The notes under the pieces: generated by a model
The model's input: the letters and a program-made list of their open reading frames with translations, nothing else
What the model was told of the DNA's origin: nothing
Database searches by the model: none
Part shown: positions 14,805 to 57,751 of the stretch, piece by piece
How positions within the stretch are numbered: position 1 is the first letter of the stretch
How the letters are laid out: the number at the start of each line of letters is the position of its first letter
Position numbers and translations under genes: made by a program
From: a virus
Strand: one strand, 5' to 3'
DNA length: 64,000 bases
Virus record (IMG/VR): IMGVR_UViG_3300022602_002157
Location: 13,383-77,382 of that record

Positions 14805-14809
14805 ATCGC

Positions 14810-14838
14810 TTGACTTTAGCAATCCGTTCTGTTAATAT
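14810..14838 (+). promoter_or_regulatory. sigma70-like promoter
   Basis: TTGACT(14810)-N17-TAATAT(14833), with an extended TG. Confidence 0.6.
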
Positions 14839-14844
14839 ATAACA

Positions 14845-22366: not shown

Positions 22367-22392
22367 AAAAGCCCCGTAACTGGGGCTTTTTT
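22367..22392 (+). terminator. Intrinsic terminator
   Basis: AAAAGCCCC-GTAACT-GGGGCTTTTTT. Confidence 0.9.
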
Positions 22393-22418
22393 ATTATGTT
22401 CCAAATTAATTTTATTGA

Positions 22419-27920: not shown

Positions 27921-28259
27921 ATGAAAATTAATGAACTTTTTGAAAGCAAGCACGATGAATGGGATGAGGACGATGTTCCTAGTGTTCCTAGTGATCCTGA
28001 TTCAGACAAAATTCCTCATATTCTAATGCAAATGAAAAAAGCAATAGATGTACAGGGCAATTATCCTATCACATTTAAAGATGGCACTAAGACAAAAATT
28101 CCTCTTAGTGATATCGTTAAGTTTGTAGAAAAATACGTAACCCTTAAACCCATGGACCGCGAAAAAATGCAAGACGTAGCAGGTCAAAGCAAAGAAAACT
28201 TTGACATGATTCTAAAACATTTCCGCGGCGAAACAGCACCAAAGAGTATTTACCAATGA
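27921..28259 (+). CDS. Probable internal head protein
   Basis: MKINELFES start; TAAATA at 27892-27897. Confidence 0.55.
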   Translation: MKINELFESKHDEWDEDDVPSVPSDPDSDKIPHILMQMKKAIDVQGNYPITFKDGTKTKIPLSDIVKFVEKYVTLKPMDREKMQDVAGQSKENFDMILKHFRGETAPKSIYQ

Positions 28260-29089
28260 AAAAAATTATTTTAATGTTATCATTAGTCCTATCAGGACTA
28301 ATCTATAGTACACCTAGTTTTGCTTGGAATCAGCGTCAGCCATTCCCAGTACAGCAATGTCAAGCACATGCCCCATATGGCTTTCCTAATGCACAAGGTG
28401 TACAACCATTGTGTCAGCAAGCGTATCTAGTTGGTTACGATGCGGCTGCAAAACTTCCTAAATTTGTAACTTATGAACTACTTCCACAAAACGCTATTGG
28501 CTGTGTTGCTCGCACAAATGCTTTTGCTACTAATCAATTTGTACCAAATGGAGCCACTCCCGGCGATTACGCTGGTACAGGATACGACAAAGGGCACATG
28601 GCTCCAGATGGAGACTTATCATGGGACACTCAAGTTGAATTTGAATCCTTTTTAATGACTAACATGAGTCCACAAGCAGGCTCATTAAATCGCGGTATTT
28701 GGAAGTTGTTAGAAACTAGTGTACGTGGTTGGGCAGTACAGCGCAATCAAAGTTACACAGTTTATGTTGGTGGTATCTATGGCCCCGGCGACAAGACAAT
28801 TGGTAAGGGCGTAGTTGTTCCTCATGCTTTCTATAAGATTGTTATCAACAATCAAACTAAAGAGATTGCAGGTTGGGCATTCCCACACGTTGCACCATAT
28901 CCTAACTTAGGTAATGATTTAACTAAGTTCCGTGTTCCAGTACAACAGATTGAACAGCAAGCAGGTGTTCAATATGCATTCCCACAAGGTGCAATTGAAT
29001 TGCAACCTGGCAAAGAATGGCCTGTTGACTTCGGTGCTCTTACAAATGCAAAACGTGCCAAATGCGGCGCAAATGCAAGTAACGATTGA
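28256..29089 (+). CDS. Secreted DNA/RNA non-specific endonuclease (NucA/EndoG family)
   Basis: Signal peptide; GYDKGHMAP, TNMSPQ, NRGIWKLLE and VPHAFYK. Confidence 0.9.
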   Translation: MKKIILMLSLVLSGLIYSTPSFAWNQRQPFPVQQCQAHAPYGFPNAQGVQPLCQQAYLVGYDAAAKLPKFVTYELLPQNAIGCVARTNAFATNQFVPNGATPGDYAGTGYDKGHMAPDGDLSWDTQVEFESFLMTNMSPQAGSLNRGIWKLLETSVRGWAVQRNQSYTVYVGGIYGPGDKTIGKGVVVPHAFYKIVINNQTKEIAGWAFPHVAPYPNLGNDLTKFRVPVQQIEQQAGVQYAFPQGAIELQPGKEWPVDFGALTNAKRAKCGANASND

Positions 29090-29159
29090 TAATCAATATC
29101 CGGTGTATCCTGAGGACGATGGCACAGATCGTCCCAGGAACCCATACAGCCCAGTATAG
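29073..29159 (+). CDS. Possible 28-aa peptide
   Basis: MQVTIDNQYPVYPEDDGTDRPRNPYSPV* fills the gap to the next SD. It has no strong SD of its own. Confidence 0.3.
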   Translation: MQVTIDNQYPVYPEDDGTDRPRNPYSPV

Positions 29160-29167
29160 GAGTCTCA

Positions 29168-29561: not shown

Positions 29562-29798
29562 ATGCAACAACAATTAGAACAACTAGCAACAGTTAACGCA
29601 CCATGGGCACAACAACGTGCCCAATATGCATTGCAAGTAGGACAGGCTGTTCAACAAGGACAGTTAAGTCCAAGTGAGGCTAAAGAAATATTAGCCGATT
29701 TAATCAACGTAGATAAACTAAACCAAGAAGCCTCAGACGATGAAATGAGAGCGGCATTAGTGTTTGGTGTTACACAACTAGCAATGATGCTAGGTTAA
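29562..29798 (+). CDS. Small hypothetical protein
   Basis: ATG 29562 lies just after the lipoprotein stop. Confidence 0.7.
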   Translation: MQQQLEQLATVNAPWAQQRAQYALQVGQAVQQGQLSPSEAKEILADLINVDKLNQEASDDEMRAALVFGVTQLAMMLG

Positions 29799-29802
29799 AA
29801 GA

Positions 29803-29876
29803 ACTCAGCCTTAGGACCGAGTACGCGGCTACTGCGTGAACAAATAGAATTCGCTACTCTATTTGTCAAAGTGAGC
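29803..29876 (+). ncRNA. Candidate structured RNA with two pseudoknots
   Basis: P1 ACTC/GAGT, P2 ACGC/GCGT, loop-loop AGCC/GGCT, P3 ACAAATAGA/TCTATTTGT, loop TTCGCT pairing with downstream AGTGAG. GC-rich intergenic island. Confidence 0.5.
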
Positions 29877-29971
29877 ACCTACCAACTTATTGTATACATA
29901 TATTTCGCTTGCCGGTTGTATTAAATACATACTCATATTGTACTTACAACAATAATAATAAAGGTGAAAAT

Positions 29972-31486
29972 ATGAAAAGAATACTAAAAGCAATTGGTAC
30001 ATCAGTCCTTATGGCCGCATTGTCAGTCAATGCCCTAGCACAATCTACCAGTACTACGGGAACATCTTCTGCAAACAGCAGTGGAACCATTACAAATAAT
30101 AATACATTAATCAATCAAGGTGGATATAGTTCAAGTTCACTGGTTGATACTAATAGCACAAGCAACAGTACTAGTGCTGTTTTTACAAATAGCAATACAA
30201 ACAGCAACAGTAATAGCACAAGTACTTCAACTGTTAATAGTAACAGTAACTCAACTGCTACGGCTACAAATAACAATAATAACGTTAGCACCAGTACTAG
30301 CACTTCAGTTAATACAAACAACAATATTCAAAGTGGTACTGTAACTAACATCAATCAGAATACCAACAATGGTACTATGACGTATAACAATAACAACGTC
30401 AATAGTGGTACAATGACCTATAATAACAACAACGTTAATACAGGTACAATGACCAACAACAATAATAACGTTAATACATCAACTTCATCAAGCACTAGTG
30501 TTAATACAAACAACAATGTTAATACTGGTACTATGACATATAATAACAACAACGTTAATGCGTCAACTTCAACTAGTACAAACGTTAATACAAATAATAA
30601 TATTAACAGTGGTACTATGACATATAACAATAATAATGCAAGTACTTCATCAAGCACTAACGTTAATACAAATAACAATATTAACAGTGGTACAATGACT
30701 TACAATAATAACAATGTAAGCACAAGTAACAATGTTAATACAAACAACAATATTAACAGCGGTACAATGACATATAATAACAATAATGTCACAACTAGCA
30801 ACAACGTTAATCAAAATAATAACGTCAATACTAGTACGAGTACAGCAACCAACACCAATAACAATAATAATGTAAGCACCAGTAACAATGTTAACCAAAA
30901 TATTAACACTGGTACAATGACTAACATTAACCAAAATACATCTGCGGTAACAAGTCAAAACACTAATACTAACAATAACAACAATAATAGTACTAGCAAC
31001 AACGTCAACCAAAACATTCAAAGTGGTAGTATGACAAATAACAATAACAATAACAGTAACATTACTGAAAAAGTTATTCAGCCTCCACCAACAGCAGTTG
31101 CTCCTGCAATGTTAAGTGGTGGTAACCCTGATCTATGTACAACAGGTACTAGTGGTTCAGTACAAACACAAATCTTTGGCGTTGCTAGTGGTGGTACTAA
31201 CCGTGACATGAATTGCGAAAGATTAAAAATCTCTAAAACACTTTATGACATGGGCATGAAAGTAGCCGCTGTTGCTACAATGTGTCAAGACCGTCGTGTA
31301 TTTGACGCTATGATGGCAGCAGGCACCCCTTGCCCATACGAAGGTAAAATTGGTGATCAAGCCAAAGACGAGTGGGAAACACATCCAGAAAAACTACCAA
31401 AAGTAGAAAAGGAAAAGAGAGATGACACATATGAAAAAGTGGGCATTGGCGCTTTGCTTGGTGCTCTTGTCTTCAAACTTTTCTAA
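29972..31486 (+). CDS. Secreted/membrane-anchored Asn-rich repeat protein
   Basis: Signal peptide; repeats of N[I/V]N[S/T]GTMTYNNNN; Cys-containing C-terminal domain and terminal hydrophobic helix. TAAATA at 29922-29927. Confidence 0.8.
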   Translation: MKRILKAIGTSVLMAALSVNALAQSTSTTGTSSANSSGTITNNNTLINQGGYSSSSLVDTNSTSNSTSAVFTNSNTNSNSNSTSTSTVNSNSNSTATATNNNNNVSTSTSTSVNTNNNIQSGTVTNINQNTNNGTMTYNNNNVNSGTMTYNNNNVNTGTMTNNNNNVNTSTSSSTSVNTNNNVNTGTMTYNNNNVNASTSTSTNVNTNNNINSGTMTYNNNNASTSSSTNVNTNNNINSGTMTYNNNNVSTSNNVNTNNNINSGTMTYNNNNVTTSNNVNQNNNVNTSTSTATNTNNNNNVSTSNNVNQNINTGTMTNINQNTSAVTSQNTNTNNNNNNSTSNNVNQNIQSGSMTNNNNNNSNITEKVIQPPPTAVAPAMLSGGNPDLCTTGTSGSVQTQIFGVASGGTNRDMNCERLKISKTLYDMGMKVAAVATMCQDRRVFDAMMAAGTPCPYEGKIGDQAKDEWETHPEKLPKVEKEKRDDTYEKVGIGALLGALVFKLF

Positions 31487-41584: not shown

Positions 41585-41600
41585 ACGGTACACAAAGTAG

Positions 41601-41628
41601 TTGACTTATCTACGCATTCTGTTATAAT
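41601..41628 (+). promoter_or_regulatory. sigma70-like promoter
   Basis: TTGACT-N16-TATAAT with an extended TG. Confidence 0.7.
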
Positions 41629-41650
41629 AACTATATTATAAGGAGTAACA

Positions 41651-41911
41651 ATGTCGGATAGAACTTTTAACGCAGAAGCAAAAATTAAACTTACCCAACT
41701 TATCAACGAAGGTATGCAAGTTATGCATGAAGTTGAAACACTAAACGAGGGTTTGGCTGATACAGTCAAGGCAATTGCAGAAGAATTGGAAATCAAGCCC
41801 AGTATTCTTAAGAAAGCAATTCGTGTTGCACACAAGGCCCGTCTCGGTGAGACAAACAAAGAGAATGAAGAACTTAATACTATTCTCGAAACCGTAGGTA
41901 AAACACTTTAA
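41651..41911 (+). CDS. Small dsDNA-binding protein (T4 DsbA/GapR-like)
   Basis: 86-aa helical protein, pattern ..D.VK..AEEL.I.P..LKK.IR..HK; strong SD AAGGAG. Confidence 0.55.
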   Translation: MSDRTFNAEAKIKLTQLINEGMQVMHEVETLNEGLADTVKAIAEELEIKPSILKKAIRVAHKARLGETNKENEELNTILETVGKTL

Positions 41912-41914
41912 TAC

Positions 41915-45227: not shown

Positions 45228-45235
45228 ACTCGCTA

Positions 45236-45286
45236 TTGACATTCGCAATAAAATCCACTATTATACATGATAGAACTGCCTAAATA
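45236..45286 (+). promoter_or_regulatory. Tandem sigma70-like and late-type promoters
   Basis: TTGACA(45236)-N17-TATTAT(45259), then TAAATA (45281). Confidence 0.6.
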
Positions 45287-45306
45287 TTACTTACAAAGGA
45301 AAAAAT

Positions 45307-48596: not shown

Positions 48597-48611
48597 TGTT
48601 AGCCATAACTG

Positions 48612-48639
48612 TTGCATTATACACAAAACAATGTATAAT
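48612..48639 (+). promoter_or_regulatory. sigma70-like promoter
   Basis: TTGCAT-N16-TATAAT. Confidence 0.5.
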
Positions 48640-48662
48640 AGTTAAAGACTCTGGAGACAGAT

Positions 48663-56294: not shown

Positions 56295-56327
56295 ATAAAG
56301 ATAGCGGTCTTTTGGCATCATTCCCGC

Positions 56328-56356
56328 TTTACAAATTCTGCTGCCTATGCTATAAT
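56328..56356 (+). promoter_or_regulatory. sigma70-like promoter inside the structured queD leader
   Basis: TTTACA(56328)-N17-TATAAT(56351) with TG. An upstream TAAATA lies at 56292-56297. Confidence 0.6.
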
Positions 56357-56373
56357 TAACATAGGAGATAAAA

Positions 56374-57700: not shown

Positions 57701-57703
57701 CTA

Positions 57704-57732
57704 TTGACAATAGTAATTGATTATCATATAAT
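57704..57732 (+). promoter_or_regulatory. Consensus sigma70 promoter
   Basis: TTGACA-N17-TATAAT, an exact match. Confidence 0.85.
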
Positions 57733-57751
57733 CACAATAGAGGTATAATTT

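What the first reader, a model, noticed from the sequence alone, without database searches (positions are those of the whole stretch)
29803..29876. Candidate double-pseudoknot non-coding RNA
Seen: in a 170-nt intergenic gap, most bases of a 74-nt GC-rich island can pair. P1 is 29803-06/29819-22, P2 is 29823-26/29834-37, a kissing pair is AGCC 29807-10/GGCT 29827-30, and P3 is 29840-48/29858-66 (9 bp). The P3 loop TTCGCT can pair with AGTGAG 29870-75. There is no U-tract, so it is not a terminator. Inference: ribozyme, exonuclease-blocking element or small RNA. I cannot assign an Rfam family.
Basis: partly seen in the sequence, partly recalled or inferred. Interest (0 to 1): 0.7.

Follow-up and report, generated by a model that had tools for sequence, protein, structure and literature searches.

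The report
Phage RNA with loops antisense to ribosomal RNA
The spacer encodes a three-hairpin RNA from a large, phage-only family that I found in no database or paper; its unchanging loops are exact complements of universally conserved stretches of host ribosomal RNA, so these phages may contact the ribosome directly through an RNA.

Summary
In a 74-sequence family alignment, all 16 modelled pairs show compensatory changes. The two proposed pseudoknot contacts are not supported.

The element belongs to a phage-restricted RNA family. Only 3 MAG contigs matched among 185,579 prokaryote genomes. Eight of nine related jumbo-phage records, and this one, hold one copy. It always sits just after a stop codon, between unrelated genes. 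Rfam and the paper library gave nothing.

The invariant loops are antisense to rRNA:
- CCUUAGGACCG pairs with 23S 1920-1930, at the 3' side of helix 69.
- UUCGCUAC pairs with the adjoining 23S 1930-1937.
- The family's second loop, CGGCUGCUG, pairs with 16S 519-527 (530 loop). This window carries one mismatch there.

Relatives that swapped the third loop carry complements of 23S 1968-1979 instead. In one subtype the third hairpin is a normal terminator; here it has no U-tract.

Best reading: an RNA that pairs with host rRNA, with unknown effect. This scan noted the same family earlier on other DNA.

The parts
29562..29798 (+). Upstream 78-aa gene. Its stop codon lies 4 nt before P1. It is context only and is not conserved across the RNA family.
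   Evidence: Homologues in other phages are followed by other DNA. Upstream genes of family members fall into 31 clusters.
29803..29822 (+). Hairpin P1/H1: stem ACUC/GAGU with a 12-nt loop.
   Evidence: Compensatory change U-A to A-U in L260. Across the family, 4 of 4 pairs change on both sides.
29809..29819 (+). CCUUAGGACCG, an exact antisense of 23S rRNA 1920-1930 (E. coli numbering): the 3' strand of helix 69 plus the junction after it.
   Evidence: Duplex energy -23.3 kcal/mol. Exact in 48 of 72 sequences that were selected without using this motif.
29823..29837 (+). Hairpin P2: stem ACGC/GCGU with loop GGCUACU. The family consensus loop is GGCUGCU.
   Evidence: 14 distinct stems among the 27 type-A sequences analysed. 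99% of cells pair, and 3 of 4 pairs change on both sides.
29826..29834 (+). CGGCUACUG. The family form CGGCUGCUG is an exact antisense of 16S rRNA 519-527 (530 loop). This window has one central mismatch, A29831.
   Evidence: L115 carries the consensus G. A random 9-mer matches by chance at about 0.017.
29840..29866 (+). Hairpin P3/H3: a 9-bp stem with loop AUUCGCUAC. It is homologous to the intrinsic-terminator hairpin of subtype B.
   Evidence: (19 distinct stems).
29850..29857 (+). UUCGCUAC, antisense of 23S rRNA 1930-1937, directly adjoining the H1 target.
   Evidence: This core, or a close variant, is present in 47 of 72 sequences selected without it.
29868..29876 (+). Conserved tail AAAGUGAGC, which marks subtype A. 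Its partner is unknown.
   Evidence: The best rRNA antisense match is only 7 nt.
29919..29927 (+). TATTAAATA, a variant of this phage's recurrent intergenic promoter-like motif TGATAAATA. It is the probable promoter of the 504-aa gene, which would place the RNA upstream of that transcription start.
   Evidence: 8 of 9 + strand copies of [GT]ATAAATA lie in or at the edges of intergenic regions. The motif is kept in L115. The promoter role is an inference.
29972..31486 (+). Downstream 504-aa signal-peptide gene. It is context only and is not linked to the RNA in other phages.

Best explanation
Bases 29799-29878 (+) encode a roughly 80-nt, three-hairpin RNA. It is the compact 'subtype A' form of a single-copy, phage-specific RNA family.

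In this phage it is most likely made as the 3' end of the transcript that carries the 78-aa gene. This is inferred: I saw no convincing promoter directly upstream, and a promoter-like motif for the next gene lies 40 nt downstream.

The stems serve to display short unpaired sequences:
- The H1 loop can pair with 23S rRNA 1920-1930.
- The H3 loop can pair with the adjoining 23S 1930-1937.
- The P2 loop can pair, imperfectly in this window, with the 16S 530 loop.

I propose that the RNA acts by pairing with host rRNA, either on nascent rRNA or on free subunits. Helix 69 forms the subunit-joining bridge B2a and the 530 loop is part of the decoding site, so pairing would disturb or exploit subunit joining or assembly.

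Shown here: the structure, its conservation, the complementarity, the phage restriction and the copy number. Inferred: expression, the RNA ends, actual binding and the physiological effect.
For: - Structure: covariation in all three stems.
- Strand: the strand is set by the U-tract terminators of subtype B. In paired columns there are 54 G-U cells against 28 A-C cells.
The same pattern found only 3 MAG contigs among 185,579 species genomes, and one of those has the same length as an IMG/VR phage contig.
- Copy number: a covariance model finds exactly one copy in the own record and in 8 of 9 related jumbo-phage records, and one per locus in 78 of 80 sources searched.
- Context: neighbouring genes are unrelated, with 31 upstream and 27 downstream clusters, so the conserved unit is the RNA itself.
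The H1 loop is an exact 10-11-nt antisense of it and the H3 core an adjoining 8-nt antisense. In many members the antisense match runs on through helix 69 for 18-26 nt; local alignment scores reach 34 against a maximum of 22 for shuffles.
- Swapped loops: among 72 sequences selected only by the P2 loop and tail, 10 carry a different H3 loop. The 7 distinct versions tested all find their best antisense match at 23S 1968-1979, and two versions extend in opposite directions from a shared core.
- 16S: the P2 loop consensus is an exact 9-nt antisense of 16S 519-527.
- Local conservation: the element diverges 10% from L115, against 29% for the rest of the spacer.
Against:
- The H1 target includes the base-paired 3' strand of helix 69. 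A 9-12-nt loop cannot pair along its whole length without opening its own stem.
- The two 23S-antisense segments occur in permuted order, so they cannot form one continuous duplex.
- The H3 loop lacks one U relative to 23S GCGAAAUUC, so only 8 nt pair perfectly. One H3 variant (GGAAUCGCUA) is also a 10-nt sense match to 16S 1336-1345.
- P2-loop variants, including this window's A29831, create mismatches rather than wobble pairs with 16S. The 9-mer match has a chance probability of about 0.02 per motif tested.
- Two other swapped H3 loop classes (GGGAGUCGUGCCC and GGCCGGGAAUCC) and the invariant tail have no rRNA complement beyond chance.
- rRNA is far more abundant than any phage sRNA is likely to be.
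- Whole-element duplex energy against 16S 505-540 is no better than shuffled sequence (107 of 500 shuffles as good).
Confidence: 0.5

Rival explanations
1. The RNA is real and conserved, but its loops are recognised by a protein or by an RNA other than rRNA. On this view the rRNA complementarity is a relic of ancestry, for example a captured antisense piece of rDNA, and not the working principle.
For: The tail and two swapped H3 loop classes have no rRNA complement beyond chance. P2-loop variants mismatch 16S. The permuted order and the loop geometry are awkward for a simple duplex.
Against: Relic sequence would drift, yet the complementary bases are the least variable positions while the stems turn over completely. 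Independently swapped loops again complement 23S domain IV at 1968-1979. Different scaffolds, subtypes A and B, keep the same antisense bases.
Confidence: 0.22
2. It is just the transcription-terminating or 3'-end-protecting structure of the upstream operon.
For: It always lies a few bases after a stop codon on the gene strand. In subtype B the third hairpin plus its U-tract is a textbook intrinsic terminator. In many subtype-A loci a promoter follows immediately.
Against: This window and all of subtype A lack a U-tract, while the phage uses canonical terminators elsewhere, for example at 22369-22393. A terminator needs no invariant loop sequences. There is exactly one copy per 300-350-kb genome.
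Confidence: 0.12
3. It is a DNA-level site: an rDNA-like target or decoy for a homing endonuclease or recombinase. The matched 23S stretch holds the core of the I-CeuI recognition sequence (my recollection of the site, not a tool result).
For: The matched rDNA segment is a hotspot for site-specific elements (established knowledge). The RNA occupies different genomic positions in related phages.
Against: The two rDNA-like pieces are permuted and separated by covarying stems that include G-U pairs, 54 against 28 A-C. That points to selection on an RNA. The orientation relative to genes and terminators is fixed. No endonuclease gene is consistently adjacent.
Confidence: 0.05
4. It is a cis-regulatory leader (riboswitch or attenuator) for the downstream 504-aa gene.
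For: It lies upstream of a gene, and subtype B ends in a terminator, as riboswitch expression platforms do.
Against: Downstream genes fall into 27 unrelated clusters. Homologues of the 504-aa gene in 80 other loci lack the element upstream. A promoter-like motif lies between the element and the gene.
Confidence: 0.03
5. It is a double-pseudoknotted self-cleaving ribozyme or exonuclease-resistant RNA.
For: The proposed tertiary pairs can be drawn in this one sequence, and the loop and tail are both conserved.
Against: No ribozyme or xrRNA family matches, even at E<=10. The kissing pair is absent from 19 of 27 relatives without compensation. The tail is kept when the loop is swapped, and the loop is kept in subtype B, which has no tail. 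The connecting linker is too short to cross the stem.
Confidence: 0.03

Closest known systems
Loop-presenting antisense RNAs of plasmids and phages (CopA/CopT of R1, RNA I/RNA II of ColE1, Sok/hok)
   Same: A small, stably folded RNA whose hairpin loops carry the complementary bases. In subtype B the helix-69-antisense hairpin could kiss the helix 69 loop.
   Different: Those RNAs are cis-encoded against one mRNA or primer. This one is trans-encoded and its complement lies in universally conserved rRNA. No binding has been shown here.
3'-UTR-derived and stand-alone base-pairing sRNAs with a seed plus an intrinsic terminator
   Same: It sits directly after a stop codon and shares the mRNA's terminator in subtype B. 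It carries short conserved unpaired segments.
   Different: This window's form has no terminator. The putative targets are rRNAs, not mRNAs. Nothing is known about any chaperone.
Eukaryotic and archaeal snoRNAs and U3 snoRNA
   Same: They are RNAs that act by base pairing to conserved rRNA segments, often on nascent rRNA.
   Different: There are no C/D or H/ACA boxes and no known protein partners. It is encoded by a virus of bacteria, where no rRNA-pairing guide RNAs are known.
Viral mRNA elements that pair with rRNA (calicivirus TURBS, luteovirus BTE, other 3' cap-independent translation elements)
   Same: A virus-encoded untranslated element next to a stop codon or in a 3' UTR, with complementarity to rRNA.
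   Different: Those are eukaryotic, target 18S, and promote reinitiation or initiation in cis. Here the neighbouring genes vary, and many copies end in a terminator.
Synthetic antisense PNAs and oligomers against rRNA functional sites (own knowledge: Good and Nielsen, PNAS 1998)
   Same: They show that short antisense molecules against conserved rRNA loops can bind ribosomes and inhibit translation.
   Different: They are artificial. The sites used there were the peptidyl-transferase centre and the sarcin loop, not helix 69-70 or the 530 loop.
EBS1/EBS2 loops of group II introns
   Same: Two separate loops, in the same 5'-to-3' order as their targets, pair with adjacent target segments. This is the same 'permuted' topology seen here.
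   Different: Those loops belong to a ribozyme of about 400 nt or more. This RNA is about 80 nt and has none of the intron domains.

Membership tests
Unnamed phage RNA family with rRNA-antisense loops (defined here by model R1 and two motif patterns) | Three-hairpin architecture with covarying stems | tested here: met
   The window scores 99 bits, E = 2.8e-27, over the full model length. Covariation is shown. Caveat: the window is one of the 10 sequences the model was built from.
Unnamed phage RNA family with rRNA-antisense loops (defined here by model R1 and two motif patterns) | H1 loop CCUUAGGACC and H3 loop (G)AAUUCGCUAC(UC) | tested here: met
   Both are exact at 29809-18 and 29847-59.
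Unnamed phage RNA family with rRNA-antisense loops (defined here by model R1 and two motif patterns) | Subtype A marks: P2 loop GGCUGCU and 3' tail AAAGUGAGC | tested here: met
   The tail is exact at 29868-76. The P2 loop has one substitution (GGCUACU), and the sister sequence L115 has the consensus.
Unnamed phage RNA family with rRNA-antisense loops (defined here by model R1 and two motif patterns) | Position just after a stop codon, on the same strand, single copy | tested here: met
   The stop codon ends at 29798. There is one match in the window and one in the own 77-kb record.
Rho-independent (intrinsic) terminator | G+C-rich hairpin immediately followed by a U-tract on the transcribed strand | tested here: not met
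   No + strand site was found. P3 is followed by CAAAGUGAGC. Homologous hairpins in subtype B do meet the criterion.
Any Rfam 15 family, including self-cleaving ribozymes and xrRNAs | Covariance-model match at or near the gathering score | tested here: not met
   There were 0 matches at gathering score in the window. At E<=10 only two irrelevant weak hits appeared, both outside the element.
HDV-like or other double-pseudoknot ribozymes | Conserved nested pseudoknot pairings | tested here: not met
   The kissing pair is not conserved. The loop-tail pairing shows no covariation and the two parts can be separated. Catalysis could not be tested.
Trans-acting base-pairing sRNA | Expressed as a discrete RNA that pairs with a target | not testable with these tools
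Only complementarity is shown.
tRNA or tmRNA | Cloverleaf recognised by ARAGORN | tested here: not met
   No tRNA or tmRNA gene was found in the window.

The most novel reading that the evidence does not exclude
Large freshwater phages, and many others including the cultured Ralstonia phage RSP15, encode a dedicated modular 'anti-ribosomal' RNA. Its exchangeable hairpin loops each grip a different universally conserved rRNA site: 23S helix 69/70, 23S 1968-1979 and the 16S 530 loop. This would let the virus sequester, mark or re-tool host ribosomal subunits or their precursors. It would be a natural RNA-based attack on, or hijack of, the ribosome, with no described counterpart in bacteria or their viruses.
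Probability: 0.35. Interest if true: 0.9.

Novelty: new variant of a known kind. Interest (0 to 1): 0.8.

Why it matters
If the loops do pair with rRNA, this would be the first natural case I know of in which a bacterial virus addresses the ribosome through RNA-RNA base pairing rather than through proteins.

The proposed targets are two of the most conserved and functionally central rRNA sites: bridge B2a and its flank, and the decoding-site 530 loop. That would open a testable route to phage control of translation or ribosome biogenesis. It would also explain why one tiny gene is kept in single copy across very different phages, and it would point to rRNA sites that nature has found accessible to antisense molecules.

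Even if the target proves to be something else, this is a large, strongly covarying RNA family that Rfam lacks. It has a cultured member, Ralstonia phage RSP15, that is available for experiments.

Tried and rejected
- Single-sequence folding gave no signal.
- No second copy of the P3 core exists in the window with up to 3 mismatches, and the whole 173-nt spacer matches only itself in the own record.
- Eighty loci with homologues of the 504-aa gene, and 33 plus 78 loci with homologues of the upstream genes, lack the element. Only L115 and L116 are syntenic.
- Exact 27-mer and 21-mer searches for the P3 and H1 regions found nothing or one locus. The family appeared only after I combined the two loop motifs with a variable gap.
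- The INPHARED blast with the element itself gave only chance hits.
- A weak Qrr match in L195 (19 bits against a gathering score of 50) rests on the terminator stem alone.
- ARAGORN found no tRNA.
- I considered a minus-strand terminator at 29822-29803 and a 47-aa minus-strand ORF at 29859-30002. I dropped both because the family's orientation is fixed by the subtype-B terminators and the gene strand.
- The 8-nt match of a single swapped loop (L329) to 23S was within chance expectation on its own. It became meaningful only when seven distinct loops hit the same site.
- rRNA complements for the tail, for the subtype-B first hairpin and for loop classes i and iii do not exceed chance.
- I saw 5S-like sense similarity (GAACUCAG, AAGUGA) and RNase P-like words, and judged them chance.
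- Literature searches by sequence and by topic found nothing relevant.
The 86%-identical relatives P0002 and P0003 therefore could not be fetched, and no read evidence was obtained.
- My scripts numbered 23S one base too low. The coordinates in this report are corrected against C1920, U1939 and C1962.

Full report
**Setting**

The window is part of a 77-kb IMG/VR virus record that CheckV rates 22% complete, so it is a fragment of a jumbo phage of roughly 350 kb. Nearly all genes lie on the + strand.

The finding sits in the 173-nt spacer between a 78-aa gene (29562-29798) and a 504-aa signal-peptide gene (29972-31486).

**The observation**

The island has 47% G+C, against 27% in the rest of the spacer.

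As a lone sequence the fold is unremarkable: z = -0.6 on the + strand and -2.3 on the - strand. Rfam has no match at gathering score in the window, and none at E<=10 in the spacer. There is no tRNA.

**Close relatives**

Homologues of the flanking genes are common in lake phage contigs, but the junction is not conserved. In 80 loci with the downstream gene and 33 loci with the upstream gene pair, the element is absent.

Two metagenome contigs, L115 and L116, are syntenic at about 84% nucleotide identity. There the element diverges by 10%, against 29% for the rest of the spacer. Six of the eight differences rebuild the base of P3 (A-U to U-A plus an added pair), and one lies in the P2 loop.

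**A large family**

An exact 21-mer from P3 hit an unrelated, complete 391-kb phage. In that phage the same hairpin, with the same loop, is followed by eight U's, and CUUAGGACC lies upstream. That phage has no homologue of the two flanking genes I tested, the 130-aa and 504-aa genes.

The same pattern found only three MAG contigs among 185,579 prokaryote species genomes. One of these has the same length as an IMG/VR phage contig.

Two subtypes emerge:
- **Subtype A**, as in this window: P1 encloses CCUUAGGACC, with or without an inner hairpin. P2 carries the loop GGCUGCU. P3 carries the loop AAUUCGCUAC. A tail AAAGUGAGC follows, and there is no U-tract.
- **Subtype B**: the same first and last loops and a variable middle hairpin. 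P3 plus a U-tract forms an intrinsic terminator.

A covariance model built from ten compact subtype-A sequences finds one copy per locus in 78 of 80 sources, always on the expected strand. It also finds exactly one copy in the own record and in eight of nine related 235-352-kb phage records. The one miss is a record rated 50% complete.

The element always starts within a few to about 45 nt after a stop codon. However, upstream genes fall into 31 clusters and downstream genes into 27.

One member lies in the cultured Ralstonia phage RSP15, between PhoH and ORF210, and is not annotated.

**Structure**

- P2: 99% of cells pair, and 3 of 4 pairs change on both sides.
- P3: 7 of 9 pairs change on both sides.
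- On the model-fitted alignment of 74 distinct sequences, all 16 pairs show compensatory changes. 89.5% of cells pair against 57% in shuffles, and the covariation score is 0.685 against 0.17 in shuffles and at most 0.11 for slid registers. Because this alignment is fitted to the model, it leans towards the structure.
- G-U cells outnumber A-C cells 54 to 28 in paired columns. Together with the subtype-B terminators, this assigns the RNA to the gene strand.

In the P3-loop/tail pseudoknot both partners are invariant. The loop is equally conserved in subtype B, which lacks the tail. The tail is unchanged in members whose P3 loop has been replaced. In this window the 2-3-nt linker is too short to cross the 9-bp stem. 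I therefore reject the double-pseudoknot model.

**What the loops are**

From memory I recognised that the complements of the two loop motifs lie next to each other in 23S rRNA. I then checked this.

In E. coli numbering, anchored on C1920, U1939 and C1962 (my script output is one base too low):
- CCUUAGGACCG (29809-19) is the exact antisense of 23S 1920-1930. This is the 3' strand of helix 69 plus the junction after it.
- UUCGCUAC (29850-57) is the antisense of the adjoining 23S 1930-1937.

In many relatives the antisense match runs on through helix 69 for 18-26 nt. Local alignment scores reach 34, against a maximum of 22 for shuffled sequences. This window has lost that inner hairpin.

The subtype-A P2 loop with its closing pair, CGGCUGCUG, is the exact antisense of 16S 519-527 in the 530 loop. 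A random 9-mer would match at about 0.017. This window has A in place of the central G, which creates a mismatch; L115 has the consensus.

**An ascertainment-free check**

I selected 72 distinct subtype-A sequences using only the P2 loop and the tail.
- CCUUAGGACC is exact in 48, and the rest differ at one or two positions.
- The CGCUAC-type H3 loop is present in 47.
- Ten carry a different H3 loop, ACGCCA with various flanks. The seven distinct versions I tested all find their best antisense match at 23S 1968-1979. Two sub-versions extend the match in opposite directions from the shared core (UGGCGUAAU and GAAUGGCGU). A random 14-mer gives any 9-nt rRNA antisense match only 7% of the time.

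This repeated re-targeting to 23S domain IV is the strongest argument that complementarity itself is under selection.

Two other loop classes and the tail have no rRNA complement beyond chance.

Predicted duplex energies are -23.3 kcal/mol for H1, -14.3 for H3, and -16.3 for this window's P2 loop against -21.1 for the family form.

**Mechanism**

I commit to an RNA that displays rRNA-antisense loops and acts by pairing with host rRNA. In this phage it is probably made as the 3' end of the upstream transcript.

The phage's recurrent promoter-like motif TGATAAATA (8 of 9 + strand copies lie in or at the edges of intergenic regions) appears in variant form at 29919-27. That would place the RNA upstream of the next gene's transcription start.

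Expression, RNA ends, binding and effect are all inferred.

Weak points:
- Part of the target is base-paired in mature 50S subunits.
- Loop geometry limits how many bases can pair.
- The two 23S segments are in permuted order. Group II intron EBS1/EBS2 loops share this topology.
- P2-loop variants mismatch 16S.
- rRNA is in vast excess over any likely amount of this RNA.

**Known or new**

I found nothing in Rfam, nothing in the annotation of RSP15, and nothing in the searchable paper library.

This scan's notebook shows that other agents noted the same family on other genomes with the same reading. I reached the 23S complementarity independently before reading those notes. They are unchecked AI notes.

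This report adds:
- the subtype-A anatomy;
- the 16S 530-loop complement;
- the swapped H3 loops aimed at 23S 1968-1979;
- the single-copy status in related jumbo phages;
- the rejection of the pseudoknots.

Noticed in passing
window 29108-29137 (spacer 29090-29167): A strong G+C-rich hairpin, CCUGAGGACGAU-GGCACAG-AUCGUCCCAGG, lies between the nuclease gene and the 130-aa gene and has no U-tract. The syntenic relative L115 conserves it with a single change in the loop. Its function is unknown.
   Followed up: partly
window 12812, 12877, 18593, 22417, 27890, 36101, 40984, 54095 (+ strand): The motif TGATAAATA, or GATAAATA, recurs 30-70 nt upstream of genes. Eight of nine + strand copies lie in or at the edges of intergenic regions, and only 3 copies lie on the - strand. 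It resembles the T4 late promoter TATAAATA and is probably this phage group's middle or late promoter. The same motif directly follows the RNA in many subtype-A relatives.
   Followed up: partly
window 14805-14844, 41585-41650, 45228-45306, 48597-48640, 56295-56373, 57701-57740: There are near-consensus sigma-70 promoters, for example TTGACA-17-TATAAT at about 57705. The phage therefore appears to use both host-type and phage-type promoters.
   Followed up: no
window 22369-22393: A canonical intrinsic terminator, AAAAGCCCCGUAACUGGGGCUUUUUU, is followed by a TGATAAATA motif. This shows that the phage does use U-tract terminators elsewhere.
   Followed up: no
window 29972-31486, and loci L003-L081: The 504-aa protein has a signal peptide, an S/T/N-rich repeat region and a conserved C-terminal domain (phrog_20531). 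Its homologues are very common in lake phages. In many of them the gene lies directly after a gene whose C-terminus reads like a lysozyme or chitinase-type endolysin (my reading of the upstream translation, not a database hit), which hints at a role at the cell envelope or in lysis.
   Followed up: partly
window 41652-41914: An unlisted small gene of about 87 aa (MSDRTFNAEAKIKL...) has a sigma-70-like promoter. In 15 other phage loci its homologue is the gene directly downstream of the RNA element. In this phage the two are 12 kb apart.
   Followed up: partly
loci L333, L338, L341, L348, L363, L367, L371, L375, L376, L385, L386, L389, L393, L396, L330 (H3 loop): A recurrent replacement of the third loop by a nested mini-hairpin, GGGAGUCGUGCCC(C). 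A second replacement, GGCCGGGAAUCC, occurs in L347, L358 and L399. Neither has an rRNA complement beyond chance, so their targets are unknown.
   Followed up: partly
subtype-B loci such as L209, L210, L216, L237, L251, L255, L264: A conserved leader AAAGAUACC followed by a hairpin GGGUUUGAAGACCC precedes the CUUAGGACC motif. The sequence before it often resembles a T4-type late promoter. In L195, TATAAATA lies a few bases upstream. Some members may therefore be stand-alone genes.
   Followed up: no
window 28256-29089: A DNA/RNA non-specific endonuclease (Pfam Endonuclease_NS, E = 3e-42) is encoded two genes upstream of the RNA.
   Followed up: no
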